DNA of 57,828 nt from a virus (taxonomy: Duplodnaviria; Caudoviricetes), in IMG/VR virus record IMGVR_UViG_3300042355_000871, positions 1-57,828 of that record. One strand, written 5' to 3'. The translations under genes and the position numbers were made by a program. Below the pieces are notes generated by a model. The model had not been told where the DNA came from. It made no database searches and worked only from the letters and a program-made list of their open reading frames with translations. The stretch's first letter is position 1. Every line of letters begins with the position of its first letter. Shown one piece after another: positions 8,451-23,670 of this stretch.

Positions 8451-11400
8451 TCGGCTTTTTCCGCGGCGACAGCTTTGGAGGCGGCTTCTTCTGGTTGGCG
8501 AAATAGTCGCGCAGGATTGCAAGTTCTTCCTCTGCCTTCGGGACGTTCGCGCGCTTGCTTGCATACTTCGACGTCATGACGCCGATGCCGGTTCCGATAC
8601 CAGCGCCGATGCCAAGCATCATGAGCCCCTTGGCCTGAGCATACTGGTCTTCAAGCTCCTGCACGCGAGCGTAGTTTTCTTCGCTCTTATCGTTCTTGAG
8701 ATTTTCGTAAGCTGTATTCAGCTTTTCCTTGATCATCTCTGCGTTCTGGCCGGCAAGCACTGCCTCGGTCACCGCGCTGCCGCCAATAAGTGCATCCATC
8801 GCCCCGACTTTGCGGCCAATGAACTTGTCAGGGAACAGACCAGATGGAGGCATTACGTCCTTGAGCGGGCGGGCAATCCACGTACCGTCACGCCTCGTCT
8901 CAAAGGGAACCTTGGTCTTCGATCCGCCACGCTGCCAGAACTCGTTGACGTTGGTTGCGCGCTTCCTGATCTCGGCCCGATCCTGCACAGTTTTCGGAGG
9001 AGATATCGGCGCGTTGTTCAGCAGCGCATCGGCCTTCTTGATGGCGTTCTTTGCTGTGAACTTGGAGACGGTCGTTCCGCCAACGCGGAACAGCTTCGCA
9101 CCAGTGGCGCCGGCGATACCACCAAGCAACGGAGCGTAGTCACGGAAGGCCAGTTGCTCGTCAGTCGGTCGCGTGCGCTCAAAAGCAGCGTCTGCCTTAA
9201 GCTTGTCGCGCTCGCCTTCCAGCGTGGCAAGACGCTCGCGAGCCGTCTTCAGGCTTGCGTTGAGTTCGTCCTTGCGGCCACGAATAGCCGCCTTGGTGAT
9301 GTCGCCAAGCGTGCCATCAATGCCAGTCGGGCCAAGGTCGAAGCCTTCGCTGTCAAGCTGCGCCTGGATTTCCTTGTTCGTGCCGTCCGAGAAAATCTTG
9401 AGCGCGCCTTCAAAGTCTGCGATCTGTCCAAGCTCACGTTCAATGAGCATGTCATTGTCGGCAATCTTCTGAGCCGTCTCAGGCGTCTGAGGGACAGCCT
9501 CTCCAGCCATCCCGCCTGCGATAGCGCCGATCGCTCCACCGGCCACGGTACGGCCAATGCCAGATGTGGGGGAACGCCCCATAACTCCCTGCGGCTTGGG
9601 GCTTGAAGCAGAAAGGCGGGTTCCGCCGCCGACACCGAACATGCCTGCCTGTTCAGGGCGCCTGCGCGTTACCGGGACGGCAGTTGTGGGTGGACCTTTG
9701 ACTGGAGCACGCCCGCTTTTGAGGGCGGGTTTAGGCTTTGTGTCGCGACGGTTAACCTTCTCAAGGAAGGCCGCATGTCCGTCTTCTACTTTTTGGGCGA
9801 GGGCTTGGAACTGCTTCCGCGCATCGGCGAGACTATCACGACGGGCTCGAGCGGTATCCCAAGCTTTTCGAGCTGCGCCCGAGTAGCCAGCCGGTGCCGA
9901 TCTTCTGGCAAGATCTCGCTGTGCTGTACTTTTGGATATCCCGGCTGCTTTGGCGAAGTCATCGGTGATCCTTTCAGAAATGGCCTCAATTCGGCCAGCG
10001 TAGTCACCGCCCTCAGTATAGACCGATTTGTAATCGTGCGTGAAGATTGTGGGTGAGCCGTACTTATCCGCCCCAATAGCCCCGTTGAAGGCAGCGTCCA
10101 GTTGCTTCAGGGAGATGCCGCGCGGCATCTCTCCGTCGAAGTTAGGGTTAATGTCGAACTGGTAGCCGTTCGGGTAGCGGTTGTAGCTGAACGTGTGGCC
10201 CTCGGCATTCAGGGCCTTTGACAATGCGCGAAGGTCGGCAGGGCTCATGCGCTCGACCGTTGGCACGAACATTGACAGGCCGCGAATATAGCCCTCGCGA
10301 ACGGCCTCGCCAGCGTCTGCGCCAACCGCAAGCACTTGCGACACAGCCATTGCGGCCTGGCGAAGATCCTCGCCCGCGACAGCGTTGAAGTCCGCGATTT
10401 CGCTGTCCGTCAATCCTTTTAGCGGGATACGAATGTTAGGCGACAGATCGCCCTCAAACGAACCGCCAACGTCGAGCGGGTTTTCCTGCGTCGGGTGGTC
10501 GATGCGCGTGATGTCTTCGGTCTTGTTCATGCGACCAGTAATGGCCTTGGTCAGTTTCTCCCACGGCTGATCTCCTCTAGCGCTCTCGTAGAGCCCGCTT
10601 AGAATCGGCTTCAAATACTCCCGCTGGGTGAGTTCATCGCCCTCCGCCACAGCGCGGTCAAAGCGCTCACGCGCGGCCTTCCCGACCGGCGTGAGCTTCG
10701 TGCCAAACTCAATCGTGGCCTTGGGCGCTGCCCGCCACGGCCCTGCTGTGCGACGCAAGGCATCAGCAAAACCTGGATGCATTAGCGCTTCACGAGTGAT
10801 CTTTTGACCATCAATGCCGGGGATACCGGCGTTGTTCAGCTTGTTGATGATCCCGTCCCAAACCTGATGGTAGGCGTCTCCGGTGGCTGCACCGCTGGTT
10901 TGCGAGCGGAGGTGAACCCACGCCGGCGCCTGAAAGTTCCAGCTCTGAAGATTAAACGGCGGAGCATTCGCCATTTGCGGGTTTGCCGCCTTCATTGCCT
11001 CGGTGATCTGGCCGCTGTGGCGCTCGTTGTACAGGTCGCGCAGCTTGTTGAAATAGATCGCCATCGGCTCGTGAAGCGACTGGTTCGACGACATGACGGT
11101 GTCGTCGATGCCGAACATCTTGCCGACCCACACGTCGTTGACGCTGATCGGGAACCTTGTCGGAACGCCGCCGGTCAGGGCGAGCGTGTCCGAGAAGTGT
11201 CCTGTCTTGTTGCCCGGTAGAGCAGACGTTCCGAGGTCTTTGCGCGTAAGGGCCTGACTGACGGCTGATGGTTGCGTCAGATCAACATCGATAGGCTTGC
11301 CCTGCATGTTGCGCGAGATGGCCGCGAGCGTGCGCTCAAGATTCTCGTCTGGTTTTGCGCGAGCCGACGTGGCACCGACAACGTCCATCGAGTGAATAAA

Positions 11401-14400
11401 CTCTTTGGCCGTGAGGTCGGGGAGATTGTTCCCGAATGCCTCGCCCGATAGTTCGTACCAGAGCATGTCGCGATACGGCAGGCGCATCGCAGCATCCCAC
11501 TGCTCGGCAGGGAATGTCGGCACAACGCCATGCTTGCTTGCCGCATTCTTTGCGGCCTGCGAACTGGCCTCGACCGACTGGCGCCACAGATCCGCCAGTT
11601 CGTCGTCCGTGACATCGAAGCCGGGGCCCTTCGCCGCAAGAAACTCTGGCGAGAGGTCTGTCCAGTTTCCGCCGCCCGGAGCGCCAGGCGTATACGTGCC
11701 GCCAACAACTCGCTCGGCTTCTGGCACGATGACATTCAAGCGCTCCGCTGTGGCGGCGCCGCTGACGCGCGTATCTGCGCGGGCAGCGGCAATTGCCGCC
11801 TGAGTTGGGGTCGGCAGAGATGGTGCTATTGGTTTGCCGCGCTGAATGATTTCAGACAGCGGCCTGTTTCCCGGCTCATACTTTGCTCCCTGCGGAGCTT
11901 TGGGACGGCCTGCAATCGATCCCTGATCCGCCCCACGCACCGGAGGCGGCTTGACGCGCCCAGCACCACGCATGGAGTTGGCGAGGCGAGGACCGTACTT
12001 CCCACCGAGAGCCAGACCCATGCCGCCTAGCGCGCCAGCCTGCGGATCTTCCTGGTTGGCGAACGAGCCGCCGACTGAGCCGAAGCCAGCTAGGGCTACA
12101 TCCTGCTTGAGATTGTCGGCGATGCCGCTTGCGCGAGGCCCACTCACACCAGCTAGAAGCTTGGAGCTTTGTGTTTCGGAGGGGTCGAACTTGGCGAACT
12201 TGCCTCGGATGTTGGAGGGGTCGAAGATAATAAAGCTATCGCCGTCGCCTTCATGGGCATTTCGATAAACAATACTGTCGTAGCCCTTGTCTTGAATGGC
12301 CTTCTTGATGTCGCCCGCAGTAATATCCCACGCTGGTTTGTTGATTTCAATTGGATCTGGCAAGGTCGCTAGCTGATAGCGGAGAGAACCAACCGACCAG
12401 TTGCCGGGGTCTTGAAGGCGGAGCGGATTGCGAGCGCGAGCATACACAGGAAGAACGGCTGCGCCTTCGTGAAACTCTTCGCCAAGTCGTTTAGCTACGC
12501 CAGTAGTTTTGACGATGTTATTCGCCTGCGCTACATTTCCGAGATGGACCCCAAGGGGCTCATCACCTGATCGCGACAGGTTCGCGTTGAACTCATCGAA
12601 ATCTGCGCGCGTCCCATGATACAGCGGCGTATCGACATCAAACCCCTGCTCTCTCGCTCTCTGCATTCGAGAGGGCTCATCCATAGGAAGGGACTTCCCT
12701 CCGAAGCCGTTCTGCGCGGGACGATTGGCGTTGGCTTCTTTGATCTTGCTGACGAGCGTGTTGATGCCAACGCGCTTGCCGTCCAAGAGGAAGACCTTCC
12801 TGTCCTCGCCCTGAACGCCATTGCGCCGGCTCACCTCAAACTGGACCGATACTTTGCCAGCGGCGGTGTCCAGCGTGTCCGTCTCATTCAGGCGCCCAAG
12901 CTGATCAATCTCTGCTTGGGCTGGATCGGCGCGACGACCTCCGAAGCCCATCCTCACTGGCGGTGGCCTTGAAGCGCCAGAAGCGGGAGGCGGGGTCATG
13001 GGCGTGGAGCCCCTCGCGAGACGGTTGCCGAGAACGCCGCCGCCGATGCCGCCGATGCCTGCGCCAAACAGCGCGTTCATGAGCTGCTGGTTCTCGTCCT
13101 CCGCAGGAGCCATCGCCCCAAGGACGCCGCCAGCGACGATGCCAGTGCCGGTCGCAGACGCCGACGATGTCGTGCCGGGCGGGTTGCCTCTGGGGCCGCG
13201 CGTGCGCCCCGGAGACGGAGGCGGTGCAGCAGCCGCAGCAGGTTGAGCGGGAGGGATCAGGCCCTTCTCAGCCATGCGCGCTTCAACGCGGCGGATGACC
13301 TCATTCAGATTGCCCTCGGTCATCGGCTTGCCAATGAGCGGGATCAGCGCGCGGTTCACTTCCTCATCGTAGACGCCAGGATAGCGGAGACGCTGGTAGA
13401 TGTCCTTCGCCGTGCGTGCGATCGGCTTGACCGCCACATCGTTCACAAGGCCCGGCAGTGAGAACTGATTGCCAGAGGTTTCGACACGGTCCAGAACGCG
13501 CGTGATGGCGTCCTCGCCTTCCATGCCAGCGTCACGGATTGCCGCCTGACGCATGGCGGTGTCAGACCCACCCGCAACGCGACGGCCCCACTCACGGTTT
13601 GCGCCGAGCCTGCGGATAGTCTCCTCGAACGTGTCAGCAGCCTTCTGGCTACCAAGCGCCGTCGCCATGTTCTTGAGCGCCTTGTCCTTCAGGAGCTTCG
13701 TCAGCGCGCTCTGGTTGTTGGTCTCGATCATATCCTCGATGTTGCGGGCAACACCCATCGCAAGGGCTTCGACCTCGCCCGCAGTCCAAGGCGATCCGTT
13801 GCGGCCTTTGGACATGTCGCGCCGAAGTTCCCACGTTTTCTGGTTCAGCGCCTTAGTGCCGACCTCGAAGGCATCTTCCAGCCGTTTGACATCCTCAAAC
13901 ACACCAAGCGCGTTGCCATACTCTCCGCCAGTGGCCTGGCTGACGCTGTCGGCAAAGTTGCGCTTCGTGCCGCCAACAATGCGGGCCGTGTCCGAACCGA
14001 ATCCGGCGTCCGCGATGACATCGTCAAAGGCGCGCTTCGTGTAGTCCAGCGCCATCGTGGTCGGAATGGCTGTGCCGCGAACGGGATCGGCCATGTAGTC
14101 GTCGATCGATTTGACCGCGTCCCTAGCGCGGTTCCACTCCATCATTGACCGTTCATCAGCCCCGCGCGCCGCACGCGCCTGAAGATCAGCCGCTACTGAA
14201 GCGAGGTTGTTGCGAGCAGACTGGAGAGCCTTCTGCCCGCTCGGCGTGTTCAGAACCGGGACGATTTCGTTGGCGAAGACACGCGGATCGACAGGGGTGG
14301 CATAGGCATTGTCATAGGCTGGGGCCGCTTCAGTGCGGAGACGGGTTTCCAGCTCGTCCAGCGTGGCAACGGCGTTGTCTGCCTTCTGGCCCGTCGCGCG

Positions 14401-15948
14401 TGTTGCGCCGCGAGTAATGCGGGGAGACAGCTTGTCAGCGTTCTGGTTCACAACGCCAATCAGCGCCTCTTGCAGCGGCCCCGGAGCAGCGCCGCCGGCC
14501 ATCTGGAGGCCACGCAGGTTCGCGCCTGACGAGTTGTCCGTCATCGCCGCAAGTTCGCCGGATGTCTCGTAGACGCCGCTGTCGCCACGACGGGCAAGCC
14601 TCGCCTGGACTTTGCGGATGTCTTCTACCGTCACGCCGTCCGCTTCCATCTTCTTCATGAAGATGTCGTCGGCGCGCTGTTCTGCACGGGAGCGGGCTGG
14701 AACGGGCTGCGGTGCGCTTGCCGTGACCACTGGTGCGTTTGGCGGTGTCGGGGGCACAGGCTGGGCCGCGACGGTTTGCGGCTGTGTGGGGGCTTGCTGT
14801 GCGGTTTGCGTTGCAGCAACGGCAGAAGCCACGGGAGGCATCTGCCGGGATGGTTGGCGCAGGTTAACGCCACCAGCATTGGTAGGCGTTGTGGGAGCAT
14901 CAAGCGCCTTAAGGGCGCGCGGGACGGCGCGAGCAGCTTCAATGCTAACGTAATTGAGCGGGTCAGCAGCGCCCTGCGTACCGGCCATGTTTCGGTCAGA
15001 CCCCGCAGGCGCTGCGCCTGCGCTCATTCCGTAGGCCAGAGCCGCGTTCTCACCAGTCTCAACGCCAACGCCACGAAGCGTGCGCGACATCCCCGGAACG
15101 GTCGCTAAACTCTCGCTGAGTGCTTTACCCCCTTTGAGGATCGGCGCTCCAAATCCGGTAAACACGGATGCAAGATTGCCCGTAACATCAGCAGCCATTT
15201 CGCCCGGTGTAGTGGCAGCGGGTATCGGAAGGCTGGGGAGAATATCGCCAACGGCCTGCTGGTTCTGGACGTAGCCGCCCTGCTGCGCAGCATCTGCGAC
15301 ACGCTGCGTGATATCGCCGTATTCGCCGCCAGCAAGCGCGCCCTGCATCGACGGGTCAAAACCAGCACCATAGGCATTGGCAGTGCTGAGGCCCAATTGG
15401 CCGAGCGTGTTGGCAACGCCAATGTTGGAGTTAACGAACGCACCAGTAGCGCGGCCCGCAAATCGATCCGGTCGCTCCTGGTTCAGTTCAAGCGGTCCAT
15501 CTGGCCCCGTGTTCTTGAACGGGATCGGGGATGCCGCGTTCATCAGCGCAAGTTCTTCGTTGTACTTGTTGACGCGCTGCGCTTCATCACGCTCTGGCTG
15601 CGTTGCCCTGATCTGTGCGGGCGACATGACGGGACCGCGAACAGGCGGGGGCTTCATCCGCGTCGGCTGGCCTGATGTCAGCGTGCGAGCGTCAGGACGC
15701 AGCGGGGACAGCATCGGATCGGTCTTGGGCTTGCGAGCGTACATGTCATCGAACGCCTGACCGTCGCCCCACGGCGTTGCGTCGGGCTGGGACATGGGCG
15801 CCGGTTTTGCGATTGCCGCGGCAGGCTGAACAAGGCCGCGCTTCATCGCCTCTTCGTATGCCGCCTTCTTGTCGGGCGGAAGCAGGCCGCGCTTGTAGGC
15901 TTCCGCCAGCGCATCGGCCTTGCTAATCGAGGTATTTTCCGGAACCAT
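8389..15948 (-). CDS. Giant (2519 aa) internal virion/ejection polyvalent protein with ART-like, HhH-glycosylase-like and PG-binding domains
   Basis: Last of three ejection-position genes. LYHGT...GVHLG...LPVYAR.RNPL...GYDSIVY...FIIFDPSNIRGKFAKFDP; LWYE...ATSAR...GNKTGHF...SVNDVWV; EIQAQLDSEGFDLGPTGIDGTLGDITKAAI. Confidence 0.85.
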   Translation of the reverse strand: MVPENTSISKADALAEAYKRGLLPPDKKAAYEEAMKRGLVQPAAAIAKPAPMSQPDATPWGDGQAFDDMYARKPKTDPMLSPLRPDARTLTSGQPTRMKPPPVRGPVMSPAQIRATQPERDEAQRVNKYNEELALMNAASPIPFKNTGPDGPLELNQERPDRFAGRATGAFVNSNIGVANTLGQLGLSTANAYGAGFDPSMQGALAGGEYGDITQRVADAAQQGGYVQNQQAVGDILPSLPIPAATTPGEMAADVTGNLASVFTGFGAPILKGGKALSESLATVPGMSRTLRGVGVETGENAALAYGMSAGAAPAGSDRNMAGTQGAADPLNYVSIEAARAVPRALKALDAPTTPTNAGGVNLRQPSRQMPPVASAVAATQTAQQAPTQPQTVAAQPVPPTPPNAPVVTASAPQPVPARSRAEQRADDIFMKKMEADGVTVEDIRKVQARLARRGDSGVYETSGELAAMTDNSSGANLRGLQMAGGAAPGPLQEALIGVVNQNADKLSPRITRGATRATGQKADNAVATLDELETRLRTEAAPAYDNAYATPVDPRVFANEIVPVLNTPSGQKALQSARNNLASVAADLQARAARGADERSMMEWNRARDAVKSIDDYMADPVRGTAIPTTMALDYTKRAFDDVIADAGFGSDTARIVGGTKRNFADSVSQATGGEYGNALGVFEDVKRLEDAFEVGTKALNQKTWELRRDMSKGRNGSPWTAGEVEALAMGVARNIEDMIETNNQSALTKLLKDKALKNMATALGSQKAADTFEETIRRLGANREWGRRVAGGSDTAMRQAAIRDAGMEGEDAITRVLDRVETSGNQFSLPGLVNDVAVKPIARTAKDIYQRLRYPGVYDEEVNRALIPLIGKPMTEGNLNEVIRRVEARMAEKGLIPPAQPAAAAAPPPSPGRTRGPRGNPPGTTSSASATGTGIVAGGVLGAMAPAEDENQQLMNALFGAGIGGIGGGVLGNRLARGSTPMTPPPASGASRPPPVRMGFGGRRADPAQAEIDQLGRLNETDTLDTAAGKVSVQFEVSRRNGVQGEDRKVFLLDGKRVGINTLVSKIKEANANRPAQNGFGGKSLPMDEPSRMQRAREQGFDVDTPLYHGTRADFDEFNANLSRSGDEPLGVHLGNVAQANNIVKTTGVAKRLGEEFHEGAAVLPVYARARNPLRLQDPGNWSVGSLRYQLATLPDPIEINKPAWDITAGDIKKAIQDKGYDSIVYRNAHEGDGDSFIIFDPSNIRGKFAKFDPSETQSSKLLAGVSGPRASGIADNLKQDVALAGFGSVGGSFANQEDPQAGALGGMGLALGGKYGPRLANSMRGAGRVKPPPVRGADQGSIAGRPKAPQGAKYEPGNRPLSEIIQRGKPIAPSLPTPTQAAIAAARADTRVSGAATAERLNVIVPEAERVVGGTYTPGAPGGGNWTDLSPEFLAAKGPGFDVTDDELADLWRQSVEASSQAAKNAASKHGVVPTFPAEQWDAAMRLPYRDMLWYELSGEAFGNNLPDLTAKEFIHSMDVVGATSARAKPDENLERTLAAISRNMQGKPIDVDLTQPSAVSQALTRKDLGTSALPGNKTGHFSDTLALTGGVPTRFPISVNDVWVGKMFGIDDTVMSSNQSLHEPMAIYFNKLRDLYNERHSGQITEAMKAANPQMANAPPFNLQSWNFQAPAWVHLRSQTSGAATGDAYHQVWDGIINKLNNAGIPGIDGQKITREALMHPGFADALRRTAGPWRAAPKATIEFGTKLTPVGKAARERFDRAVAEGDELTQREYLKPILSGLYESARGDQPWEKLTKAITGRMNKTEDITRIDHPTQENPLDVGGSFEGDLSPNIRIPLKGLTDSEIADFNAVAGEDLRQAAMAVSQVLAVGADAGEAVREGYIRGLSMFVPTVERMSPADLRALSKALNAEGHTFSYNRYPNGYQFDINPNFDGEMPRGISLKQLDAAFNGAIGADKYGSPTIFTHDYKSVYTEGGDYAGRIEAISERITDDFAKAAGISKSTAQRDLARRSAPAGYSGAARKAWDTARARRDSLADARKQFQALAQKVEDGHAAFLEKVNRRDTKPKPALKSGRAPVKGPPTTAVPVTRRRPEQAGMFGVGGGTRLSASSPKPQGVMGRSPTSGIGRTVAGGAIGAIAGGMAGEAVPQTPETAQKIADNDMLIERELGQIADFEGALKIFSDGTNKEIQAQLDSEGFDLGPTGIDGTLGDITKAAIRGRKDELNASLKTARERLATLEGERDKLKADAAFERTRPTDEQLAFRDYAPLLGGIAGATGAKLFRVGGTTVSKFTAKNAIKKADALLNNAPISPPKTVQDRAEIRKRATNVNEFWQRGGSKTKVPFETRRDGTWIARPLKDVMPPSGLFPDKFIGRKVGAMDALIGGSAVTEAVLAGQNAEMIKEKLNTAYENLKNDKSEENYARVQELEDQYAQAKGLMMLGIGAGIGTGIGVMTSKYASKRANVPKAEEELAILRDYFANQKKPPPKLSPRKKPTTPPPLPPSRPRRNQRPPKP

Positions 15949-17538
15949 TTAGTTCAGCCCCAGCAAAGCGCGGATTTCATCATCGCTCGCATCAGATGCG
16001 GTCGCGCCAGTTGGCGCTTGCGGCAGAGCCGCCTGAACACGCTTGCCAATGAATGAGTTGACCGGAGGCCCCTTGCCCATCTTGACGGCAAGCCAGTCAT
16101 CAAAGGCCGGGACTGCTTTCACCTTGCCCGACTGCGGATCAAACAGGCTGTTTTCCTGCTTGTAGATGTTCCACATCGCGTCGGCTTTCTGCTTCGATTG
16201 CGGATCTCGCGGGTCAATGCTTCGCGTCAGGAAGTTGACGTACTGCTGGCCGCGCTGCTGCAACGCTACAGCTTGCTCGGTCGCCAGCTTGTTGGACTGC
16301 GGGGTGTTGTTCACGTTCACAACCGAGTTCTTGAACATCGTGACATCGGCGTCTGAGTTGCCGCCCGAACCAGGCCGGCGAATGAGCGGCGCAATTGTAT
16401 CGGTCAGTTTTTTGGCTTCCGACGTTCGGGTGCTACCCGCCTGCATCAGATCATTGAAGAAGCCAGCGCCTTGAAGCCAGTCGTCACCTTTGACGACGTC
16501 CATGAACTGTGTGGAGGCACCTGCGATCGTGTCCAGATCGCCCTGACGCGCCTTCACTTCATCAAGCTCAGTCATGCCCTTATTGTAGATTGTCGCAAGC
16601 TGCGAGCCGTCGAAGATTGCATCGCCTGAAGCTTCGGCTTCAGCAGCAGTCCTCTTCAAATCAAGCTCTTGGCCTGCAATGCGCTCGTTCGCCTTGTTGC
16701 CGCGCACAGTCTCGCCGAGCACCCTTTCGCGGTATTCGTCATCTGTCTCATCGCGACCTTGGCGATAATCGAATTCGGTGTTCCAGCGTTGGTCGCCAAC
16801 CGCATCGCGACCACGCGCGTAGTTCCTCTCGTCAGCAGCAAGCGCATCCGCACTGCGCTGACGCTGCTCGCCCTTCACAGCCGCAGCCGCTTCCATCGGG
16901 TTCATGCCCATAGCGATCATGGCGCGAACCTGCGCGGCGTCTGATCCCGCCTGTTGCTGCTGCGGCGTGAAGCCGCCACGCGCTGCCATCGGCGCTGCGG
17001 AGACCTGCGGCTGCATCGCGCCTGCGGGCGGCGTTGCCTGTCCGAGAGCGGCCATGCCGGGGTCTGGGATTGACCACCGAGGGGGGCGCGGCGTCATCGC
17101 GCCGGGCATGGCCTGGGGCTGCGCCGGTGCGACTGACGGGGCGGCTGCGGGTTGCGGCGCCTTCGGCATTAGCGCGCCCAGACCACCCTGAGGTGTCTGC
17201 CGTGGAGCGGATTGTGACGGCATAGGCGCGGCTGATGCATCCGAACCAGATGGCGCTGGGCTTTCCGGGTAAGCCATCGCCGCGGCATCGCCGGGGAACA
17301 TCTGGCTGACGAACAGGTCCGCGATCCGGTCCTGATTGCTCTTGTAGGCGTCCCCCGCCTTGTTGGCCTTCTTCATGGCCTGACGGGCGATGAGCGCCTT
17401 GCCGATCTGTGCTATACCCTCGGGAAGTGATTTGGGTCCGGTCTCAAGCGCGCCCTGCTGGAGAGCCTCCGCAATGTTGCGGCGCTGCTTCAGGCGGTCT
17501 AGCTCGGGGTCGTAGCCTTGGTATCCAGCGTAGGCCAT
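15949..17538 (-). CDS. Internal virion/DNA ejection protein
   Basis: Position between the pilot-like and giant genes; Q/A/P-rich, helical; GSGGNSDADV motif typical of podoviral ejection proteins. Confidence 0.7.
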   Translation of the reverse strand: MAYAGYQGYDPELDRLKQRRNIAEALQQGALETGPKSLPEGIAQIGKALIARQAMKKANKAGDAYKSNQDRIADLFVSQMFPGDAAAMAYPESPAPSGSDASAAPMPSQSAPRQTPQGGLGALMPKAPQPAAAPSVAPAQPQAMPGAMTPRPPRWSIPDPGMAALGQATPPAGAMQPQVSAAPMAARGGFTPQQQQAGSDAAQVRAMIAMGMNPMEAAAAVKGEQRQRSADALAADERNYARGRDAVGDQRWNTEFDYRQGRDETDDEYRERVLGETVRGNKANERIAGQELDLKRTAAEAEASGDAIFDGSQLATIYNKGMTELDEVKARQGDLDTIAGASTQFMDVVKGDDWLQGAGFFNDLMQAGSTRTSEAKKLTDTIAPLIRRPGSGGNSDADVTMFKNSVVNVNNTPQSNKLATEQAVALQQRGQQYVNFLTRSIDPRDPQSKQKADAMWNIYKQENSLFDPQSGKVKAVPAFDDWLAVKMGKGPPVNSFIGKRVQAALPQAPTGATASDASDDEIRALLGLN

Positions 17539-17569: not shown

Positions 17570-17869
17570 ATGAAAAGTGTTGTGGTCGTTCTGGCGCTTG
17601 GTGCGCTTGTGTCGTGTTCGTCAGCGCCGCCGAAGAGCTTTCCGCTTCCCGATGGTCGCGCCGGCTACACGGCTCACTGTGGCGGATACGGATACAGCAT
17701 GGCGGATTGCTACGTGGTCGCCGGCAATTTCTGCGGTGGGCGTTATGAAGTCATCGGAGAAGATCAGGCTTCGCGAACCTACGGATCAGGCGGCAACATC
17801 GGAACAAGCACGACGCGCAGCATAATCTTCACTTGCGAAGTTGCGGCCCCTAAACCCGCATCTCAGTGA
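17570..17869 (+). CDS. Lipoprotein, antisense moron-like (possible superinfection exclusion)
   Basis: MKSVVVVLALGALVSC lipobox; four further Cys; opposite strand inside the virion operon. Confidence 0.7.
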   Translation: MKSVVVVLALGALVSCSSAPPKSFPLPDGRAGYTAHCGGYGYSMADCYVVAGNFCGGRYEVIGEDQASRTYGSGGNIGTSTTRSIIFTCEVAAPKPASQ

Positions 17870-20800
17870 GCGCTTCCAGCCCCAGCATGTGGTAGTAAAC
17901 GGCCTTGCCGTTCGGGGTCTCAACAACCGCTTCAGGATGTGTCTGCTCCACTTCCTGCGCCATGACGCCAACATGCTTTAGCTCGGTCGCGTCCTCGGTC
18001 TTGTAGCGGAACTCGTAGATGTTGTGGCCGTTGATCTCACCGATCTTGCGGATGTCCTTCTTGAGTCGGCGGTCAGAGGTATTCGGCTGCGGCACGAACG
18101 GATTTGCCATGATGCCCGCAGCGCCCAGCCCTGCCACGCCGCCGATCATGGCGTTATATTGCGCCATCTTCTGCGCGTAGTTCGCCTGCTGGTTCTGGAA
18201 TGCCTGCTGCTGGATACCGGCAACGTCAGTCGTCTGCATCCGGTCAGGCTGCGAGATGGCGAAGTTCGGCGTCTGAACCTGCGAGCCTGAGAGCAGCGCC
18301 GCAATCTCGTTGAGCGGCTGGTTGCGTAGCGCCATCTGCTCCTGAAGCTGAGCCGCGCGCTGGCGGTCCTGCGCATCGAGCATGTTGGTGATCTGCGCAT
18401 AGCGGTTGTTGGCAATGGTGTCGTTCCTCGCCTGAACAGCCTGCTGGTTCGCGAAAGTTTGCGAGGCGTTCGAGTTGTTGAACCCCGCCGCGTTCGTCCT
18501 GTTCGCGAGATCCTGGCTGCGGAGGTCGTTGTTCATGCCCGTGCGCTGGACTTGATTGGCCCACTCTGCCGCGCTCGCCTGATTGTTGAAGCCTGCCGCA
18601 GCCAGCGCATCCGCGATCGATCGCATGCGGTTCTGGTTGGCGAAGTCAACCGTGGCGAACTGGTCCGCGCGAGCCGCGGCGTTCTGCTGGTTGTTGTACG
18701 CCGTCCGGTTAAACTGGTCGGCATTCTGCATGCCCGTGACATTGTTGTTGAACCCAAGACGGTTCTGCATGTCAGCATTGGCCTGCGTCCGGTTCGCGTT
18801 GTTGAACCCGGTGCGCGTCAGTTGGTCGGCTGCGGTCTGGCCAGCCATCTGGTTGTTGTAGCTGGTCCGCTGGAACTGATCTGCGTTCTGTTGGCCGACA
18901 GCGTTGTTGTAGAATCCTGCCGCAGCGAGCGCATCGGCATTGCCCATCGCACGGTTGCGGTTGTTGAAGTCAGCCGTCGAGACCTGATCAGCACGCTCCA
19001 GTCCGAGCGCCTGATTGTTGAAGCCGAGGCGCTCAAGCTGGGCTGCATCCTGCGCGCCCGTCGCCTGATTGTTGAACCCGGCCCGCGCCATCGCATCCGC
19101 GTTTGCTCGCGCTGCGTTCTGGTTGTTGAAGTCAGTCGCGGATAGCTGGTTGGCAAACTCCTGACCCGCGTACTGGTTATTCATGCCGAGACGGGCAAGC
19201 TGATCAGCGTTGTACGCACTGGCTGCGTTATTGTTGAACCCAGCAAAGGACAGGCGATCCGCATTTCTCTGCGAAGCATTCTGGTTGTTGAACTGCGCTG
19301 TCGAGACCTGATCGGCTCTCTCTTGTGCCGAGAGCTGGTTGTTCATGTTCAGGGTGTTGAACTGGTCTGCCCTGTCTGCGCGCATCGCATCGTTGTTGAA
19401 GCCCGTCATGGCGAGGGCGTTGGAAATCCGCTGCGATGCGTTCTGATTGTTGAAGCCCGCGATCTGTGCGCGGTCCTGCAAGCCCTGCGATGCAATCTGG
19501 TTGTTGAACTGAGCAGCCGCCATAGCCTCACCAGAACGCAGGCCCACGTTCTGGTTGTTGAACTGCGCCGCGTTGAACTGGTCCGCGCGTTCCTGCCCGG
19601 TAAGCTGGTTGTTGTAGCCGATCTGGCTGTTGGCGTTGTCGAAGGTCTGCTGGCGCGCTGAGTTTCCGAACGCTGCCGCATCGCGGTTGAGTCCGGTGAT
19701 GCGGGACTGCTCCTGCCCTGCATTCAGGATGGCTGCGATGCGCGCATCATTGGCCATCCGGCTGTTCTCATCGAGCGCACGGTCGCGGCCCGTACCCTCC
19801 CGAATGCCTCGGTTCGCAAGGTTGCTCTCAAGACGATCGCGCTGGCGATCAAGCTCAGGGTTGAGCCTCGCCATGAGGGCTTCCTCATAGCGTCTCGAAT
19901 CTCCGACCTCGTAGCCCGTCTGGAGGCCGGCATTGCCGCTCTGACGCGCATAGGACGGACCAGCGCCAATGTCTGTGTAGGAGCCGCCAGAGCCAGCCTG
20001 CACGCCCTGATAGTTCGGAGCACCGCCAATGTCGGTATACTGCGCCGTCTCGTTGACGCGGCCAGAGGCTTGACCGGCGCCTGCGCGGGCATAGCTCGGG
20101 CCACCGCCAATGTCGTTGTAGCCCTGCGCCTGTCCCGCGCGCTCGTAATCTGCGCCTGCGCCAGCGCGAGCAAAGCTAGGCCCACCGCCGACATTGCTGT
20201 AGCCCTGCTGCCCGCCTATGCGCTCGTAGGCGCCGCCCTGTCCCGCCCGGCCATAGGCTGGCCCGCCGGCTATGTCGGCATAGCCCTGACGATCCGCAGA
20301 GAGCTGATAGCCCTGCCCCGCACCCATCGCCTGATAGTTCGCGCCGGGGCCAGCATCGGCATAGCCCTGCCCCTCACCCATGCGCTCGTAGCCCTGCGCC
20401 GCACCCATACGCTCGGCTTGCAGCGAGCCGCCCACGTCCTGATAGCCGCCGCCCTGACCAACACGACCATAGCCGGGGCCAGCGCCCATCTGTTCGTATT
20501 GCGGGAGATTGCCGATGTTCTCGAACTGCGGGCCGTTGAGGTCGCCGCTGTACTGGCTCGGCTGCAAGGAACTGCGATCTGACCACGATTGGATGTTGCC
20601 CGTGTCCAGCGGACGCGAGAGCAGATCACCCGCACGCTGGGCCTGATCAGCGCCAAGGTTGGCGAGTGTGAGGTTGCCGCGGTAGTTGGCATCACGCAGC
20701 GCCTGCGCCTGCGGCGACAGGGTCGTGGTCGCCGTGTACTGCGGGAGGTTGTAATACTGGCCGCTGTTCGGATCCTGCCAGCCATAGGTGCCTGTCTGGC

Positions 20801-20942
20801 TGTAGGTAAGCGAGCCATCGGGGCCGACCTGGTTGACCTGACCCATAGCCGTGTTGGCCAGAGCAGTGTTGACAGACTGATTGGTCTGGGCTGATGCGAC
20901 CTTGATCGGATCGGGGGCTTGCGGCGCGCTTGGCTTACTCAC
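17850..20942 (-). CDS. DNA pilot/ejection-type protein with two repeat arrays and C-terminal S74-type autocleaving chaperone domain
   Basis: N-terminal MSKPSAPQAPDP; 9-aa G/Y repeats; 18-aa FNNQ repeats; C-terminal SDRRLKKDI...YEFRYK...GVMAQEVE...P.AV....G..V.Y. Confidence 0.85.
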   Translation of the reverse strand: MSKPSAPQAPDPIKVASAQTNQSVNTALANTAMGQVNQVGPDGSLTYSQTGTYGWQDPNSGQYYNLPQYTATTTLSPQAQALRDANYRGNLTLANLGADQAQRAGDLLSRPLDTGNIQSWSDRSSLQPSQYSGDLNGPQFENIGNLPQYEQMGAGPGYGRVGQGGGYQDVGGSLQAERMGAAQGYERMGEGQGYADAGPGANYQAMGAGQGYQLSADRQGYADIAGGPAYGRAGQGGAYERIGGQQGYSNVGGGPSFARAGAGADYERAGQAQGYNDIGGGPSYARAGAGQASGRVNETAQYTDIGGAPNYQGVQAGSGGSYTDIGAGPSYARQSGNAGLQTGYEVGDSRRYEEALMARLNPELDRQRDRLESNLANRGIREGTGRDRALDENSRMANDARIAAILNAGQEQSRITGLNRDAAAFGNSARQQTFDNANSQIGYNNQLTGQERADQFNAAQFNNQNVGLRSGEAMAAAQFNNQIASQGLQDRAQIAGFNNQNASQRISNALAMTGFNNDAMRADRADQFNTLNMNNQLSAQERADQVSTAQFNNQNASQRNADRLSFAGFNNNAASAYNADQLARLGMNNQYAGQEFANQLSATDFNNQNAARANADAMARAGFNNQATGAQDAAQLERLGFNNQALGLERADQVSTADFNNRNRAMGNADALAAAGFYNNAVGQQNADQFQRTSYNNQMAGQTAADQLTRTGFNNANRTQANADMQNRLGFNNNVTGMQNADQFNRTAYNNQQNAAARADQFATVDFANQNRMRSIADALAAAGFNNQASAAEWANQVQRTGMNNDLRSQDLANRTNAAGFNNSNASQTFANQQAVQARNDTIANNRYAQITNMLDAQDRQRAAQLQEQMALRNQPLNEIAALLSGSQVQTPNFAISQPDRMQTTDVAGIQQQAFQNQQANYAQKMAQYNAMIGGVAGLGAAGIMANPFVPQPNTSDRRLKKDIRKIGEINGHNIYEFRYKTEDATELKHVGVMAQEVEQTHPEAVVETPNGKAVYYHMLGLEALTEMRV
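18384..19679 (-). repeat. About 24 tandem 54-bp (18-aa) degenerate coding repeats, consensus xxGFNNQxxxQxxADQxx
   Basis: Gapless 18-residue period from AAAFGNSARQQTFDNANS to AAGFNNSNASQTFANQQA, plus one degenerate unit. Confidence 0.9.
19908..20561 (-). repeat. About 24 tandem 27-bp (9-aa) degenerate coding repeats, consensus GxGYxxxGx
   Basis: PSQYSGDLN, GPQFENIGN, LPQYEQMGA, GPGYGRVGQ ... GPSYARQSG; one unit is 11 aa. Confidence 0.85.
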
Positions 20943-20945: not shown

Positions 20946-21389
20946 CTATGATCCTTCAGGTCCAAGGTAGAACTGGCCGGCTCGCCACTGCTCAGCCGTT
21001 AGTGTCCAGACGACACCGTTCTCGTCCCGACCGAAAAGGCGCGGGATGTCGATCCGGTCAAATCCGTAGCGCTTGAGCTGCCGATGCAGCCGCGTGTTGT
21101 GTTCGCTGTTGCGCGTCACGATCATCTGGCAACCAATGCCATCGAAGGCGTAGGCGAACAGCTCGTGCAGTATCTCGCGCGTCATCCACTTCGGCGTGGT
21201 CGATGCGCCAGAGAACTCGATCGTCCCCGCATGGGGATTCCACTCGTGCCAGGCCCAGCCCGCGACCAGCCTGCCGTCGTTGTCGATGACGCCAACGCAG
21301 CGAGAAGCGCCAAACCCTTGTGGGCAATTCGGCACAAGCGCAGAGACGAACCTCTCCACGTCCGCGTCATGGCCATAGAGCAGCCGCAT
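20946..21389 (-). CDS. GNAT-fold virion-associated protein
   Basis: Between the tail nozzle and ejection genes; W.TR..L..LFAYAF...GC...N......LKRYGF......RLFGR. Confidence 0.7.
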   Translation of the reverse strand: MRLLYGHDADVERFVSALVPNCPQGFGASRCVGVIDNDGRLVAGWAWHEWNPHAGTIEFSGASTTPKWMTREILHELFAYAFDGIGCQMIVTRNSEHNTRLHRQLKRYGFDRIDIPRLFGRDENGVVWTLTAEQWRAGQFYLGPEGS

Positions 21390-22972
21390 CAGACGACCGT
21401 CCCGCCTCCGTTGACGGTTAGGTGAAACACCATCAGCTCGGCATCAGGCACGGGCGTTGTCCCGCATGTGATCTGAACCTGCGGCGCGTGGCTGGAGCCT
21501 GCCCCATTGACGCTGACCCAGCGCGTCGTCGTGGTGGTTGCTTCGGTCGATCCATCCCACAGGACCGTATCCCAGAGGCCGCTGTCCCACGTCGATACTG
21601 TGGTGTCCGAAACGCTCGACGGAGGGCTGGGGAATGACTGGCCGTAATCGACGCTGCACGATAGCTGCGGGGTGAACGGAACCGACGAACGAAACACCGC
21701 CCTTGCCTGCATCGCCGTCTTGAAGGCTCCAGGCGCACCAAGGTCCGAGAAGTGCCATGCGACCTTGGCGGTATAGACCGCGCCGTCGTCATTGCCCTCG
21801 GACTGCATGATGTAGACCTTGCCCGCAGTCGAGCCGAAGTAAATCGTCTCATTGTGGTTGGCGAAACAACGGGCCGCAATGCCCGTCCATCTCGCCCACG
21901 CACCCGTCTCAAGGTTGACCACGAAGCACTGCGCCGCGGTCGTGCTGTCAACAACCGGGTTGGTGATGACCGCCATGTTCTTCTGCGGCCAGCGTTCGAT
22001 CTCCCACGGCAGGCTGATCCGGGCGAGAGCCTCGTCCTGCCAGTCCCTCTGGATCGGCAGCGACACCGCCGCCAGCGAGAGGGCTATGGCATCCTTCTGC
22101 AACACCGCGCTCAACGGGATGAGGCCGTCCGTCGTGGCGATGATGAGGTCGCCGCCCGAACGCATGAAAGCACTCTTGCCGAGCGGCACACCACCGATAT
22201 CGTAGCGACCATTCAGCGACCAGTTGGCAGCGCCTGGATCATCGCCCGAATAAATCGCAACCTCGCCCTTGTCGGAGACAAACACGCAGTAGTCGTCAAT
22301 GCCATCGCCCGCATCGGTTGACCACGTCGCGCCGAACAACAGCGAACCGCCGCGCTGGAAAACACCGCGCAGCGACATGTCACTGGCAGCACCGCCGATC
22401 GAATCGACGGGCAGATACCATGCGACCATCGTGCCGGTCTGGACGAAATAGAGCCGGTTCTTGAAGGCCCAGACAGCGCTCAGCGTGGAGGTCGTGACAC
22501 CCGTGATGGCCGGCGTCGATACGCCCGTGATAGCCGCCCACGTCGATCCGTCGTAAAGCCGCGCACTGTCGGTTCCGTTGACGGCGTACATGTAACTGCC
22601 GCCGCCCGTCTCCATCTGCTGGACCGAGTAGAAGCCGCTGGTCTGGCCCGTGACGCCGGTCGAAGGCGTCGAAGTTATGTCGTAGATTTTCGAGGCGTCC
22701 GCTGCGAACAGCTTCGAGACGCCGCTGATCCTGTAAGTGAACAGGCTGAGGACCGTGTCCGCGCCAACGTCAGCAAATTCCTGAAACCCGCCACGCACCG
22801 TGATGCCCGATTGCGTCGGTATCCAGTTGTCCATGACGATGGCAGCGCCTTGCAGATTGCCCGCAAGGTTGGTGTTCGTGACCCAACCCTTCGTTGGCGA
22901 TCGGAATGCCTGCATCTGCATCCGCGCCTGTGCCTGCGGGGGCGCTGCCTGCCTGCGGAATGCCCGTCTCAT
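21389..22972 (-). CDS. Tail tubular/nozzle (P22 gp10/T7 gp12-like) protein
   Basis: 527-aa beta-rich protein after the adaptor; WDSGLWDTVLWD motif. Confidence 0.75.
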   Translation of the reverse strand: MRRAFRRQAAPPQAQARMQMQAFRSPTKGWVTNTNLAGNLQGAAIVMDNWIPTQSGITVRGGFQEFADVGADTVLSLFTYRISGVSKLFAADASKIYDITSTPSTGVTGQTSGFYSVQQMETGGGSYMYAVNGTDSARLYDGSTWAAITGVSTPAITGVTTSTLSAVWAFKNRLYFVQTGTMVAWYLPVDSIGGAASDMSLRGVFQRGGSLLFGATWSTDAGDGIDDYCVFVSDKGEVAIYSGDDPGAANWSLNGRYDIGGVPLGKSAFMRSGGDLIIATTDGLIPLSAVLQKDAIALSLAAVSLPIQRDWQDEALARISLPWEIERWPQKNMAVITNPVVDSTTAAQCFVVNLETGAWARWTGIAARCFANHNETIYFGSTAGKVYIMQSEGNDDGAVYTAKVAWHFSDLGAPGAFKTAMQARAVFRSSVPFTPQLSCSVDYGQSFPSPPSSVSDTTVSTWDSGLWDTVLWDGSTEATTTTTRWVSVNGAGSSHAPQVQITCGTTPVPDAELMVFHLTVNGGGTVV

Positions 22973-23670
22973 GTGCCGCCCGGTACGTTGCCAGGGTAGG
23001 CATAGCGGATGCCGCGCGTGCCTCTTGCCGTACCCTGAACCAGAATGGTCGCGCCCTTGTCGCGCGCGATCAGCTTCTCCTTCAGGACTTCGTAGTCGTC
23101 CATCTCCTGCGCGTAGGGCTGACCCTTGGCCTGCTTCCAGCGGTAGATGATGCCGAGCTTGAGCAGGCGCTCATCCAGCCGGAAGTTGTCCGTGTCCGTT
23201 GCGAAGATGTTGGTGTTCGAGCCAGCGGCAGGATCAACATAGAGGTTGGACTGGTAGAAGTACCGGCAGGTGATGCCGGTGCCGGGAGCAGAGCGGATGT
23301 GCAGTTGCCCGCCATAGATGATCCACTCACCCGGAACCGGATCAAGGCCCTGCTCGATGTGCGAGAGCCAGACGTTCTCATCCACCACCTTGCAGAGCGG
23401 ACGATCATTGTCAGACGACCAGATTTCGCTGGTGTCCGGCATCCAGTCATAGTCGCTCGGGAGGCTGAAGTCTTCCGTCGTCCCATCGCCCGTCAGCGTC
23501 GCAAGGGTCTTGAGCAACTGCCATGTGTGAGCCTTGGAGATCGTGTTGGCGACATCGTTCGCGACCGCCTTCAGTTCGACATGCTCACGCACGGTAGACG
23601 CCATGACTGCATCGGGGACGGATACCCCGATGAAGCTACAGGCGTACTGTATCGCTGACAAAACGGTCAT
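22969..23670 (-). CDS. Head-tail adaptor (tail tubular protein A-like)
   Basis: HTWQLL...FSLPSDY...LLKLGIIYRWKQAKG..Y; synteny. Confidence 0.75.
   Translation of the reverse strand: MTVLSAIQYACSFIGVSVPDAVMASTVREHVELKAVANDVANTISKAHTWQLLKTLATLTGDGTTEDFSLPSDYDWMPDTSEIWSSDNDRPLCKVVDENVWLSHIEQGLDPVPGEWIIYGGQLHIRSAPGTGITCRYFYQSNLYVDPAAGSNTNIFATDTDNFRLDERLLKLGIIYRWKQAKGQPYAQEMDDYEVLKEKLIARDKGATILVQGTARGTRGIRYAYPGNVPGGT

What the first reader, a model, noticed from the sequence alone, without database searches (positions are those of the whole stretch)
17850..20942. Mirror-matched 9-aa and 18-aa repeat arrays in a pilot-type protein: a possible antiparallel molecular ruler for a DNA-ejection tube
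Seen: about 24 nine-residue G/Y units (N1-N24) precede a short core, and about 24 gapless 18-residue FNNQ units (C1-C24) follow it. Subtypes correspond in reverse order (Ni with C25-i). The five GPx(Y/F)xR units (N4,12,15,18,23) face the five C units carrying E(R/F/W)A(D/N)Q (C21,13,10,7,2). The eight (D/N)(I/V/A)(G/A) units (N2,5,8,11,14,17,20,22) face the eight units with N at position 8, F(N/A)NxN (C23,20,17,14,11,8,5,3). Established: 18 helical residues span about 27 A, similar to 9 extended residues; 18 = 7+11 coiled-coil periodicity; phiX174 H forms an Asn/Gln-lined DNA tube. Inference: the extended arm folds back along the helix in register, giving a rod of roughly 60-65 nm. Both arrays would have to expand together, which a single tandem duplication cannot do. 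Length may be tuned to host envelope thickness.
Basis: partly seen in the sequence, partly recalled or inferred. Interest (0 to 1): 0.88.

Follow-up and report, generated by a model that had tools for sequence, protein, structure and literature searches.

The report
Phage rod protein with mirror-matched repeats
A virion protein of a short-tailed phage carries two different repeat arrays that pair unit for unit in reverse order, most likely folding into a rigid hairpin rod about 70 nm long whose length evolution changes by adding or removing matched units in both arrays.

Summary
The minus-strand ORF 17850-20942 encodes 1030 aa with 23 nine-residue Gly/Tyr units, a conserved 71-75-aa core and 23-24 gapless 18-residue FNNQ units.

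In 172 homologues the N-linker and C-linker lengths co-vary (Pearson 0.95). After phylogenetic contrasts r is 0.985, and a second set of 148 representatives gives 0.99. Lengths run from no arrays to about 480 helix residues, with about 1.7-2 helix residues per arm residue.

A close relative differs from the window protein by +3 and -1 units in both arrays, at mirror positions. A trimer model of the sister protein puts the arm antiparallel in the helix grooves (ipSAE 0.67, best control 0.00). In that model each unit's Tyr sits on an FNN motif.

The protein has a C-terminal Peptidase_S74 chaperone domain and sits in the ejection-protein slot of a Brucella/Rhizobium-phage-like podovirus.

A DNA-conducting tube and tuning to envelope thickness are not supported. 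The role (needle or first ejected protein) remains inferred.

The parts
17850..20942 (-). Whole gene, 1030 aa, GTG start: virion protein of PHROG 6121 with paired repeat arrays
   Evidence: phrog_6121 E 2.4e-92
20607..20942 (-). Conserved N-terminal domain, residues 1-112 (helix, beta-hairpins, helix)
   Evidence: AF2 pLDDT 86-92; conserved in 81-97 aligned homologues
19926..20552 (-). N array, residues 131-339: 23 nine-residue Gly/Tyr units with a 27-residue super-period, forming the extended 'arm'
   Evidence: No secondary structure and pLDDT<50 in the monomer model. The equivalent arm in the sister protein packs on the helices
19683..19907 (-). Conserved core, residues 346-420: helix-turn-helix that reverses the chain (hairpin tip)
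   Evidence: AF2 helices 347-377 and 384 onward; found in 178 of 179 proteins by HMM; invariant L375 and G379
18375..19670 (-). C array, residues 425-856: 24 gapless 18-residue FNNQ units with a 54-residue super-period, an alpha-helical shaft
   Evidence: all-helical in AF2, pLDDT 55-75
18153..18359 (-). Conserved C-terminal domain, residues 862-930 (LRNQP-NEI-ALLSGSQV motif, loop, helix)
18078..18152 (-). Gly-rich hydrophobic tail, residues 931-955; the only hydrophobic stretch of the protein, and the expected C-terminus after self-cleavage
   Evidence: Kyte-Doolittle maximum 1.73 at 931-946; homologues without S74 end just after this tail
17853..18077 (-). Peptidase_S74 intramolecular chaperone domain, residues 956-1030, with the S956-D-R-R-L-K961 motif
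   Evidence: Pfam PF13884 E 1.1e-11, 45.3 bits against cut-off 22; PDB profile hits 6f45, 7dc3, 3gud; AF2 pLDDT 86-92
20946..21389 (-). Upstream neighbour, 147 aa, acetyltransferase-like, in the slot of the IVP-A homologue of this phage lineage
   Evidence: phrog_4470 E 6.8e-34; same gene precedes the homologue in Rhizobium phage RHph_Y25; lineage gene order from passages of PMC10386132
21389..22972 (-). 527-aa gene in the nozzle (tubular tail B) position
   Evidence: phrog_5107 E 1.7e-147; follows the adaptor gene
22969..23670 (-). Adaptor protein gene, 233 aa
   Evidence: Pfam SU10_adaptor E 6.9e-08; phrog_6013 tail protein E 3.5e-46
15949..17538 (-). Downstream 529-aa gene, presumed second ejection-module protein
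   Evidence: position only; weak phrog_21397 hit
8389..15948 (-). 2519-aa giant protein with an ART-PolyVal domain, presumed ejected polyvalent protein
   Evidence: Pfam PF18760 E 1.7e-07 at residues 1109-1247

Best explanation
Fold (most of my confidence). The gene encodes a virion protein of the tail-axis/ejection module of a podophage of the Mx8/Brucella-phage lineage. Helped by its C-terminal Peptidase_S74 chaperone, which then cuts itself off at Ser956 (inferred from the family), it folds into a homotrimeric 'trimer of hairpins'.

- Three long helices, about residues 384-884, form a straight shaft. Their repeat is 18 residues (7+11) and polar.
- The conserved core reverses the chain.
- Each Gly/Tyr-rich N-terminal arm runs back antiparallel in a groove between two helices.
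- One 9-residue arm unit pairs with one 18-residue helix unit, about 2.7 nm. The unit's Tyr docks on the helix unit's (F/Y)NN motif.
- This puts the conserved N-terminal domain beside the C-terminal domain and its Gly-rich hydrophobic tail at one end. The conserved hairpin tip lies about 70 nm away.

Evolution. Rod length is a free variable in the family, from none to about 70 nm. It changes only by paired, mirror-positioned gains or losses of whole units in both arrays.

Function (inferred, less certain). The rod sits on the tail axis and leaves the virion ahead of the DNA, as a needle/plug or as the first ejection protein. I put about 45% on each of these two roles. It would act as a length-set probe or spacer, not as the DNA conduit itself.
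For: Sequence anatomy: see the observation check.

Length co-variation, first set.
- In 172 of the 179 proteins in hand (the query P0001 among them; 7 lacked an anchor), N-linker and C-linker lengths were measured between three independent HMM anchors.
- They correlate with Pearson 0.952 and Spearman 0.962, slope 1.68.
- Independent contrasts on a tree of 167 conserved columns give r=0.985 and slope 1.76.
- Of 115 contrasts with change, 108 have the same sign, 5 are opposite and 2 change one side only.
- Sister pairs differ by 10/18, 8/18, 11/18, 20/36, 30/54, 52/90, 66/126, 75/148 and 173/342 residues.

Replicate set. All 148 new cluster representatives had the anchors: Pearson 0.989, slope 1.70. 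The populated C classes (-7, 7, 14, 25, 32, 50, 61, 68, 86, 104, 122) step by 7, 11, 14 or 18 residues.

Periods in long homologues. The C period is 18/36/54 in all but one of 50. The N period is 9-11 or multiples of these.

Close relative. L048/L049 encode a 1011-aa protein with 774 identical residues.
- It has 3 extra N units, duplicates of window N7-N9.
- It has 3 extra C units, duplicates of window C16-C18. These are exactly the mirror partners.
- It lacks N15 and one C unit at C8/C9, where the mirror map predicts C10.
The next best of 204 maps gives 7.
- The two duplications are similarly diverged: third-position identity is 11/27 and 20/54.

Complex model. This used the sister protein P0064, with core plus C array in 3 copies and the N arm in 3 copies as the partner.
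- ipSAE was 0.67 in 3 of 3 runs; the best of 3 controls was 0.00.
- The tool's mark was reached by 58 of 80 solved complexes and 2 of 110 mismatched pairs.
- The runs agree in at least 94% of contacts, and partner pLDDT is at least 80.
- The 25 best contact pairs fit C = 473.9 - 1.92 N, r = -0.993.
- Y95, Y104, Y113 and Y122 (spacing 9) touch D291, N273, N255 and N237 (spacing 18).
- P0064 Y122-N237 aligns to window Y331 (unit N23) and N445 (unit C2), so i+j=25.

Trimer. Peptidase_S74 is present. That all solved examples are trimers is recalled, not tested.

Context. The gene order is adaptor, nozzle-position gene, acetyltransferase-like gene, this gene, a 529-aa gene, a 2519-aa ART-domain protein, then tail fibre. 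The same order is found in Rhizobium phage RHph_Y25. Passages of PMC10386132 give the lineage order tubeA, tubeB, IVP-A homologue, then further internal virion proteins.
Against: - Three copies were my choice, so the model does not test stoichiometry. It was made on the sister protein with my own alignment, outside the tool's calibration.
- The AF2 monomer of the window protein leaves the N array unstructured (pLDDT<50), with pTM 0.30.
- The motif-free mirror test beats its runner-up only modestly (0.436 against 0.375).
- Co-variation has exceptions: P0173 against P0151 (146, 0), P0157 against P0138 (32, -18), P0016 against P0014 (40, 0), and 5 of 115 contrasts are opposite. The first two look like domain insertions at the arm base.
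- Homologue sets are not random samples. Searches kept only candidates sharing words with the query, and one search listed only the best 150 of 2789.
- No solved structure resembles anything but the S74 domain.
- No experiment places any family member in the virion beyond the 'structural protein' labels of deposited records.
- Nothing tested here separates a needle from an ejection protein.
Confidence: 0.72

Rival explanations
1. One reading: many copies of the helix array form a wide alpha-helical barrel with an Asn/Gln-lined lumen, like the phiX174 H-protein tube, and DNA travels through it. The arms would brace the outside.
For: The helix array is polar and rich in Asn and Gln (N2, N3, Q4, Q8 and Q13 are near-invariant). 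Its lengths change by 7 and 11 residues, as recalled for the H tube. The gene lies in the ejection module. Length co-variation and antiparallel arms fit a braced barrel as well as a trimer.
Against: The Peptidase_S74 domain accompanies trimers in every solved case I recall. A three-copy model is confident and fills the grooves with the arms. Most family members have no array at all (54 of 148 representatives have C=-7), so the array cannot be the essential conduit. Copy numbers above 3 were not modelled, so this is not excluded.
Confidence: 0.1
2. It is an ordinary external tail fibre or receptor-binding fibre, as the automatic name 'tail fiber domain-containing protein' suggests, and the arrays are its shaft.
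For: The S74 chaperone is typical of fibres and spikes. NCBI names genome-encoded members as tail fiber domain-containing proteins. Weak PHROG hits to fibre families cover the S74 part.
Against: The window has a separate tail-fibre gene at 5913-8186. The gene sits between the nozzle-position gene and the giant internal-type protein. Both termini end up at the same end of the rod, and the far tip is the most conserved part, the opposite of a variable receptor-binding tip. 48 of 172 homologues lack S74 altogether.
Confidence: 0.1
3. The two arrays do not touch each other. Each lines a third partner of variable length, and that shared partner makes their lengths track.
For: Co-variation alone cannot tell direct from indirect coupling.
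Against: The model places arm on helix with controls at 0.00. The contacts use the hallmark residues of both units. Rod length does not correlate with the sizes of neighbouring genes (rho 0.25, p 0.15, n=35; -0.08; -0.19, n=62). The mirror order of subtypes and indels is what direct antiparallel pairing predicts.
Confidence: 0.05

Closest known systems
Peptidase_S74 / C-terminal intramolecular chaperone domain proteins (endosialidase, T4-like long tail fibre tip 6f45, GA-1 neck appendage 3gud, MyRF 7dc3)
   Same: The C-terminal domain matches Pfam PF13884 above threshold and carries the S-D-x-R-x-K motif. It follows a long fibrous region.
   Different: The fibrous part here is a helical hairpin rod with a back-folded arm, not a triple beta-helix or a simple fibre. 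The domain is dispensable in the family (48 of 172 lack it). The gene lies in the ejection module.
PHROG 6121 'virion structural protein' (Brucella phages Tb/Pr, Rhizobium phages RHph_Y25/N2/RHEph18, Sulfitobacter phages pCB2047-A/C)
   Same: Same family: N-terminal domain, core, C-terminal domain and S74 all align, with 36-47% identity over the shared parts, and the gene order is the same.
   Different: The cultured phages have 320-340-aa forms with no arrays. The window protein has about 700 extra residues in two arrays and is the second longest form found; only L048/L049 is longer (C=482).
P22 gp26 / SU10 gp18 / Pa223 gp58 tail needles
   Same: These are trimeric coiled-coil rods on the tail axis, encoded just after the hub/nozzle gene and released before DNA (passages of PMC9509320 and of preprint 10.1101/2025.06.11.659172). 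The P22 needle has a polar N/Q core motif (passages of PMC13580157).
   Different: No sequence or fold match. Those needles are 15-26 nm long, have parallel coiled coils and have no back-folded arm. Here an acetyltransferase-like gene lies between the nozzle-position gene and this gene.
T7 gp14 / P22 gp7-type first ejection protein (IVP-B slot)
   Same: Same slot after the IVP-A homologue in this lineage (passages of PMC10386132). It has one hydrophobic segment and is followed by larger internal-type proteins.
   Different: No detectable homology. An S74 domain and a rod of variable length have not been described for those proteins in the texts I saw.
Class I viral fusion proteins after fusion (trimer of hairpins with an extended leash in the coiled-coil grooves). 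This analogy is recalled, not tested.
   Same: A central trimeric coiled coil with an antiparallel outer layer packed in its grooves, and a Gly-rich hydrophobic peptide brought to the same end as the other terminus.
   Different: Unrelated in sequence. Here the outer layer and the core are both tandem arrays with unit-for-unit pairing, and the length varies widely between relatives.
phiX174 H-protein DNA tube (recalled)
   Same: A helical array with 7- and 11-residue arithmetic, rich in Asn and Gln, belonging to a DNA-delivery module.
   Different: H is a ten-helix barrel without a back-folded arm and without an S74 domain. Nothing here indicates more than three chains.

Membership tests
Peptidase_S74 (intramolecular chaperone, PF13884) | Profile match above the curated threshold | tested here: met
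   45.3 bits against cut-off 22, E 1.1e-11, residues 956-1006
Peptidase_S74 (intramolecular chaperone, PF13884) | Serine at the cleavage site with a lysine five residues on (S-D-x-R-x-K) | tested here: met
   S956-D-R-R-L-K961 read. The family profile aligns this motif to SSDRRIKKD of 6f45. The catalytic role of the dyad is recalled.
Peptidase_S74 (intramolecular chaperone, PF13884) | Self-cleavage and release after trimer folding | not testable with these tools
   Indirect only: homologues without S74 end where cleavage would leave the chain
PHROG 6121 virion structural protein | Profile match over N-terminal domain, core and C-terminal part | tested here: met
   E 2.4e-92 in 2 stretches. The three anchors were found in 172 of 179 and 148 of 148 relatives
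P22 gp26-type tail needle | Sequence or fold similarity to a solved needle | tested here: not met
   No Pfam, PHROG or PDB-sequence hit, and no Foldseek hit with E<=0.001
P22 gp26-type tail needle | Gene directly after the hub/nozzle gene; trimeric coiled coil | tested here: inconclusive
   It is one gene further on, after the acetyltransferase-like gene. The trimer is assumed from S74, and the coiled coil is predicted
T7 gp14 / P22 gp7 first ejection protein | Slot after the IVP-A homologue, before larger internal virion proteins | tested here: met
   Gene order; lineage order from passages of PMC10386132
T7 gp14 / P22 gp7 first ejection protein | Homology, and presence inside the head with release on infection | tested here: not met
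   No homology detected. Location and release are not testable here. The sister PHROG 4287 is named 'DNA ejection protein', but it matches only short forms at E 1e-8 to 1e-11, partly through S74
phiX174 H-type DNA tube | Barrel of about ten helices with a lumen wide enough for DNA | not tested
   Only three copies were modelled. S74 points to trimers (recalled).
Length-ruler proteins (phage tape measure, YscP/FliK; recalled) | Protein length sets the length of another structure | not testable with these tools
   No neighbour gene size tracks rod length. Virion dimensions are unknown.

The most novel reading that the evidence does not exclude
The family is a natural, genetically adjustable nano-ruler. 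It is a zipper of specific unit pairs (arm Tyr on helix FNN, with matched subtypes) that can lengthen only by paired, mirror-placed duplications. Podophages use it to set how far their first-released axial rod reaches into or through the host surface, so rod length is a host-adaptation trait comparable to receptor-binding specificity. The 0-70 nm series in nature would then record host surface-layer depth.
Probability: 0.3. Interest if true: 0.85.

Novelty: new variant of a known kind. Interest (0 to 1): 0.75.

Why it matters
Two different tandem arrays in one protein, held to equal unit number and mirror order across hundreds of lineages, are a rare and clean case of structural coupling that can be read from sequence alone. 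Each 9-residue unit must find its 18-residue partner, so evolution has to make two changes for every step in length.

The family offers a graded natural series, from no rod to about 70 nm. Members occur in Rhizobium phages and in Ensifer and Agrobacterium genomes, so the function of an axial rod in short-tailed phages can be tested by length swaps.

It also shows that the S74 chaperone domain serves proteins of the ejection-module slot, not only side fibres. The arm-in-groove zipper, one Tyr per FNN every 2.7 nm, could serve as a design motif for rigid protein rods of set length.

Tried and rejected
1. 'The mirror pairing is a trivial result of two period-3 arrays.' I raised this after and rejected it. 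Other mirror and forward maps in phase with period 3 score much lower. The irregular units, and the indels in the relative, also follow the mirror map.

2. The AF2 monomer of the window protein gives domain limits and helicity. It is uninformative on arm contact.

3. The AF2 monomer of a short form had mean pLDDT 63 and pTM 0.25. That is too poor, so I did not use it for fold search.

4. Fold and sequence searches against structures found little.
   - Foldseek against the PDB gave 0 hits at E<=0.001. The N-terminal domain is only weakly HU/IHF-like (E about 0.2).
   - BFVD returned only unnamed or S74-named relatives.
   - The PDB sequence profile hit S74 only.

5. I asked whether another gene's size tracks rod length in 77 viral loci. 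There was no significant correlation. Gene calls there were my own rough ones.

6. I looked for a fusion link to ejection proteins.
   - MW202675.1 has a 1185-aa 'internal virion protein D' with S74 at residues 277-327 and an SLT domain at 601-694, after an acetyltransferase gene.
   - Salmonella phage 7-11 has a 412-aa 'DNA injection protein' ending in a Gly-rich tail plus S74.
   - My three family anchors are not detectable in either (E about 2).
   - I therefore treat them as analogues showing that S74 occurs in this gene slot, not as members.

7. Block sizes match between arrays (27-33 with 54; 19-22 with 36) in many long homologues but not all. By my reading, it is 13 of the 21 with a clear N period.

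Supplements of the papers were not seen; the figures and supplementary tables of PMC10386132 and the SU10 supplementary tables may say more about these genes.

9. Literature searches found no description of the paired arrays. About 1.7 million PMC articles and all subscription journals were not searched.

Full report
**What is there**

The finding's coordinates are one minus-strand ORF, 17850-20942, of 1030 aa with a GTG start. The window is the whole assembly, a single contig of 57,828 bases.

On the same strand the contig carries, in order:
- terminase;
- portal;
- a capsid-like gene;
- an SU10-type adaptor (22969-23670);
- a 527-aa gene in the nozzle position (21389-22972);
- a 147-aa acetyltransferase-like gene;
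- this gene;
- a 529-aa gene;
- a 2519-aa protein with an ART-PolyVal domain;
- a tail-fibre gene.

The portal is 48.6% identical to that of Rhizobium phage RHph_I3_18 and 38.8% identical to those of the Brucella phages. The phage is therefore a distant member of the lineage that PMC10386132 calls Mx8/Pr. I saw only passages of that paper.

**The protein's parts**

- Pfam finds only Peptidase_S74 at residues 956-1006.
- PHROGs places the protein in family 6121, 'virion structural protein'.
- The AF2 monomer has mean pLDDT 65.7 and pTM 0.30.
  - The N-terminal domain (1-107) is confident.
  - Residues 146-348 have no structure and pLDDT below 50.
  - A helix-turn-helix core begins at residue 347.
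  - An almost unbroken helix runs to residue 884.
  - A further helix covers 907-941.
  - The S74 domain is confident.
- The only hydrophobic stretch is 931-946, just before the S74 serine.

- The N array has 23 clear nine-residue units. The C array has 23-24 gapless 18-residue units.
- Periodicity z-scores run from 7.5 to 18.7. None of 2000 shuffles reached the observed values.
- Both arrays also have a three-unit super-period, 27 and 54 residues.

That super-period made me suspect the mirror pairing was trivial, because any two period-3 arrays can be matched. It is not trivial.
The best of the other 187 rigid maps and label pairings matches 9 of 13.
- A motif-free comparison of unit-unit similarity matrices also ranks mirror-25 first of 28 maps, at both protein and DNA level. 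The margin at protein level is modest, 0.436 against 0.375.

**The decisive test: homologues**

Cultured relatives (Rhizobium, Brucella and Sulfitobacter phages) have 320-340-aa forms that align only to the two ends and the core, so they lack both arrays.

Large-database searches gave 178 homologues of 99-982 aa; with the query P0001 that makes 179 proteins in hand. I measured two lengths between three HMM anchors built from the window protein:
- the N-linker, from the end of the N-terminal domain to the start of the core;
- the C-linker, from the end of the core to the start of the C-terminal domain.

Results:
- In the 172 proteins with all anchors, the two lengths correlate with Pearson 0.952 and Spearman 0.962, slope 1.68. 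They run from (7, -7) to (236, 446) for the window protein.
- Relatedness does not explain this. Independent contrasts give r=0.985. Of 115 contrasts with change, 108 have the same sign. Sister pairs differ by matched amounts such as 10/18, 30/54, 52/90 and 173/342.
- A second, independently drawn set of 148 cluster representatives gives Pearson 0.989.
- The helix side changes in steps of 7, 11, 14 and 18 residues, the arithmetic of coiled coils.
- In long homologues the C period is 18 or a multiple in all but one of 50. The N period is 9-11 or a multiple. The rule is therefore one arm unit per 18-residue helix unit, whatever the arm unit's exact length.
- Exceptions exist (three sister pairs and 5 opposite contrasts). 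Two of them look like domain insertions at the base of the arm.

**A close relative gives the orientation**

Two viral contigs, L048 and L049, encode a 1011-aa protein with 774 residues identical to the window protein. It is preceded by the same 233-, 527- and 141-aa genes and has no S74 domain.

Unit-level alignment gives the same answer at three gap penalties:
- The relative has three extra N units that duplicate window N7-N9.
- It has three extra C units that duplicate window C16-C18. These are exactly the mirror partners.
- It lacks N15 and one C unit at C8/C9, where the mirror map predicts C10.
- The order of the two events is reversed between the arrays.

The next best map gives 7. The duplicated blocks in the two arrays are about equally diverged. 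DNA copies within the arrays are only 60-77% identical. The arrays are therefore old and maintained, not fresh slippage.

**Structure model**

Core plus C array were given in three copies, and the N arm in three copies as the scored partner.
- The score was 0.67 in all three runs, and the best of three controls was 0.00.
- The tool's mark was reached by 58 of 80 solved complexes and 2 of 110 mismatched pairs.
- The runs agree in at least 94% of contacts, and partner pLDDT is at least 80.
- Caveats: I used my own alignment, the job is unlike the calibration, and three copies were my assumption from the S74 domain.

The contacts run antiparallel with 1.92 helix residues per arm residue, r = -0.993. 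Each arm touches two helices. The best-defined contacts are the Tyr that begins each nine-residue unit against the second Asn of each (F/Y)NN motif. These are the most conserved residues of both units in the window protein: Y in 19 of 23 units, N in 20 and 22 of 22.

By alignment, P0064 Y122-N237 is window Y331 (unit N23) and N445 (unit C2).

**Size**

At 1.5 A per helical residue, helix 384-884 is about 75 nm long. The return path is a 31-residue helix plus a 236-residue arm at about 2.9 A per residue, about 73 nm. These figures are inferred.

**What it does**

This part is inferred. Points for an axial protein released first:
- The gene occupies the slot after the IVP-A homologue and before large internal-type proteins.
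- In P22, SU10 and Pa223 a trimeric coiled-coil needle is encoded next to the hub and leaves before the DNA.
- S74-bearing proteins fill this slot in other podophages, once fused to an SLT-domain internal virion protein. My family anchors are absent there, so those are analogues only.
- Mature forms end in a Gly-rich hydrophobic tail.

Points against a DNA tube:
- trimer-type chaperone;
- grooves filled by the arms in the model;
- most members have no array.

Point against tuning to envelope thickness: the 0-70 nm spread among relatives. No neighbouring gene's size tracks rod length.

Whether the rod is an external needle, a plug in the tail channel or an internal ejection protein cannot be settled here.

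**Novelty**

No solved structure or named family covers anything but the S74 domain. Seven full-text searches found no account of the paired arrays, within the limits of that library.

Hairpin rods and leash-in-groove trimers are known kinds. A pair of different tandem arrays kept equal in unit number and mirrored in order appears to be a new variant.

Noticed in passing
window 17537-17869 (+): A 110-aa ORF on the opposite strand, between this gene and the 529-aa gene. It has a lipoprotein-type signal (…LVSC) and a PHROG 5685 match (E 1e-07). It may be a moron, such as a surface or exclusion lipoprotein, inside the ejection module.
   Followed up: no
window 8389-15948 (-): A 2519-aa protein with an ADP-ribosyltransferase domain of polyvalent proteins (PF18760, residues 1109-1247). 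It is a giant, presumably ejected, multi-domain protein.
   Followed up: partly
window 5913-8186 (-): The tail-fibre gene holds 4-6 copies of a repeat of about 345 nt (115 aa), 67-85% identical (families D2 and D4).
   Followed up: no
window 200-479 and 57549-57828; also 20-84 and 57357-57421: The two contig ends share direct repeats that are only 89% identical (D3 and D8). This is not a clean terminal redundancy. They may be paralogous end genes or an assembly of two variants.
   Followed up: no
window 1620-3146 (-): A phage-encoded Hsp70/DnaK-like protein of 508 aa (PF00012, E 5e-83).
   Followed up: no
window 25052-26428 (-): A 458-aa protein with an MptE-like domain and a glycosyltransferase-type PHROG match, inside the structural gene block.
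   Followed up: no
L048 9905-12940; L049 9905-12940: The closest relative of the window protein has even longer arrays (N-linker 254, C-linker 482) and no S74 domain. S74 is absent from 48 of 172 and 9 of 148 family members, which end right after the Gly-rich tail.
   Followed up: yes
L082 8173-11730 (MW202675.1): A 1185-aa protein after an acetyltransferase gene has an internal S74 domain (residues 277-327) followed by an SLT transglycosylase domain (601-694). Self-cleavage there would split one polypeptide into two virion proteins.
   Followed up: partly
window protein residues 1-107: The N-terminal domain model (helix, beta-hairpin arms, helix) gives weak, non-significant Foldseek matches to HU/IHF proteins (E about 0.2).
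   Followed up: no
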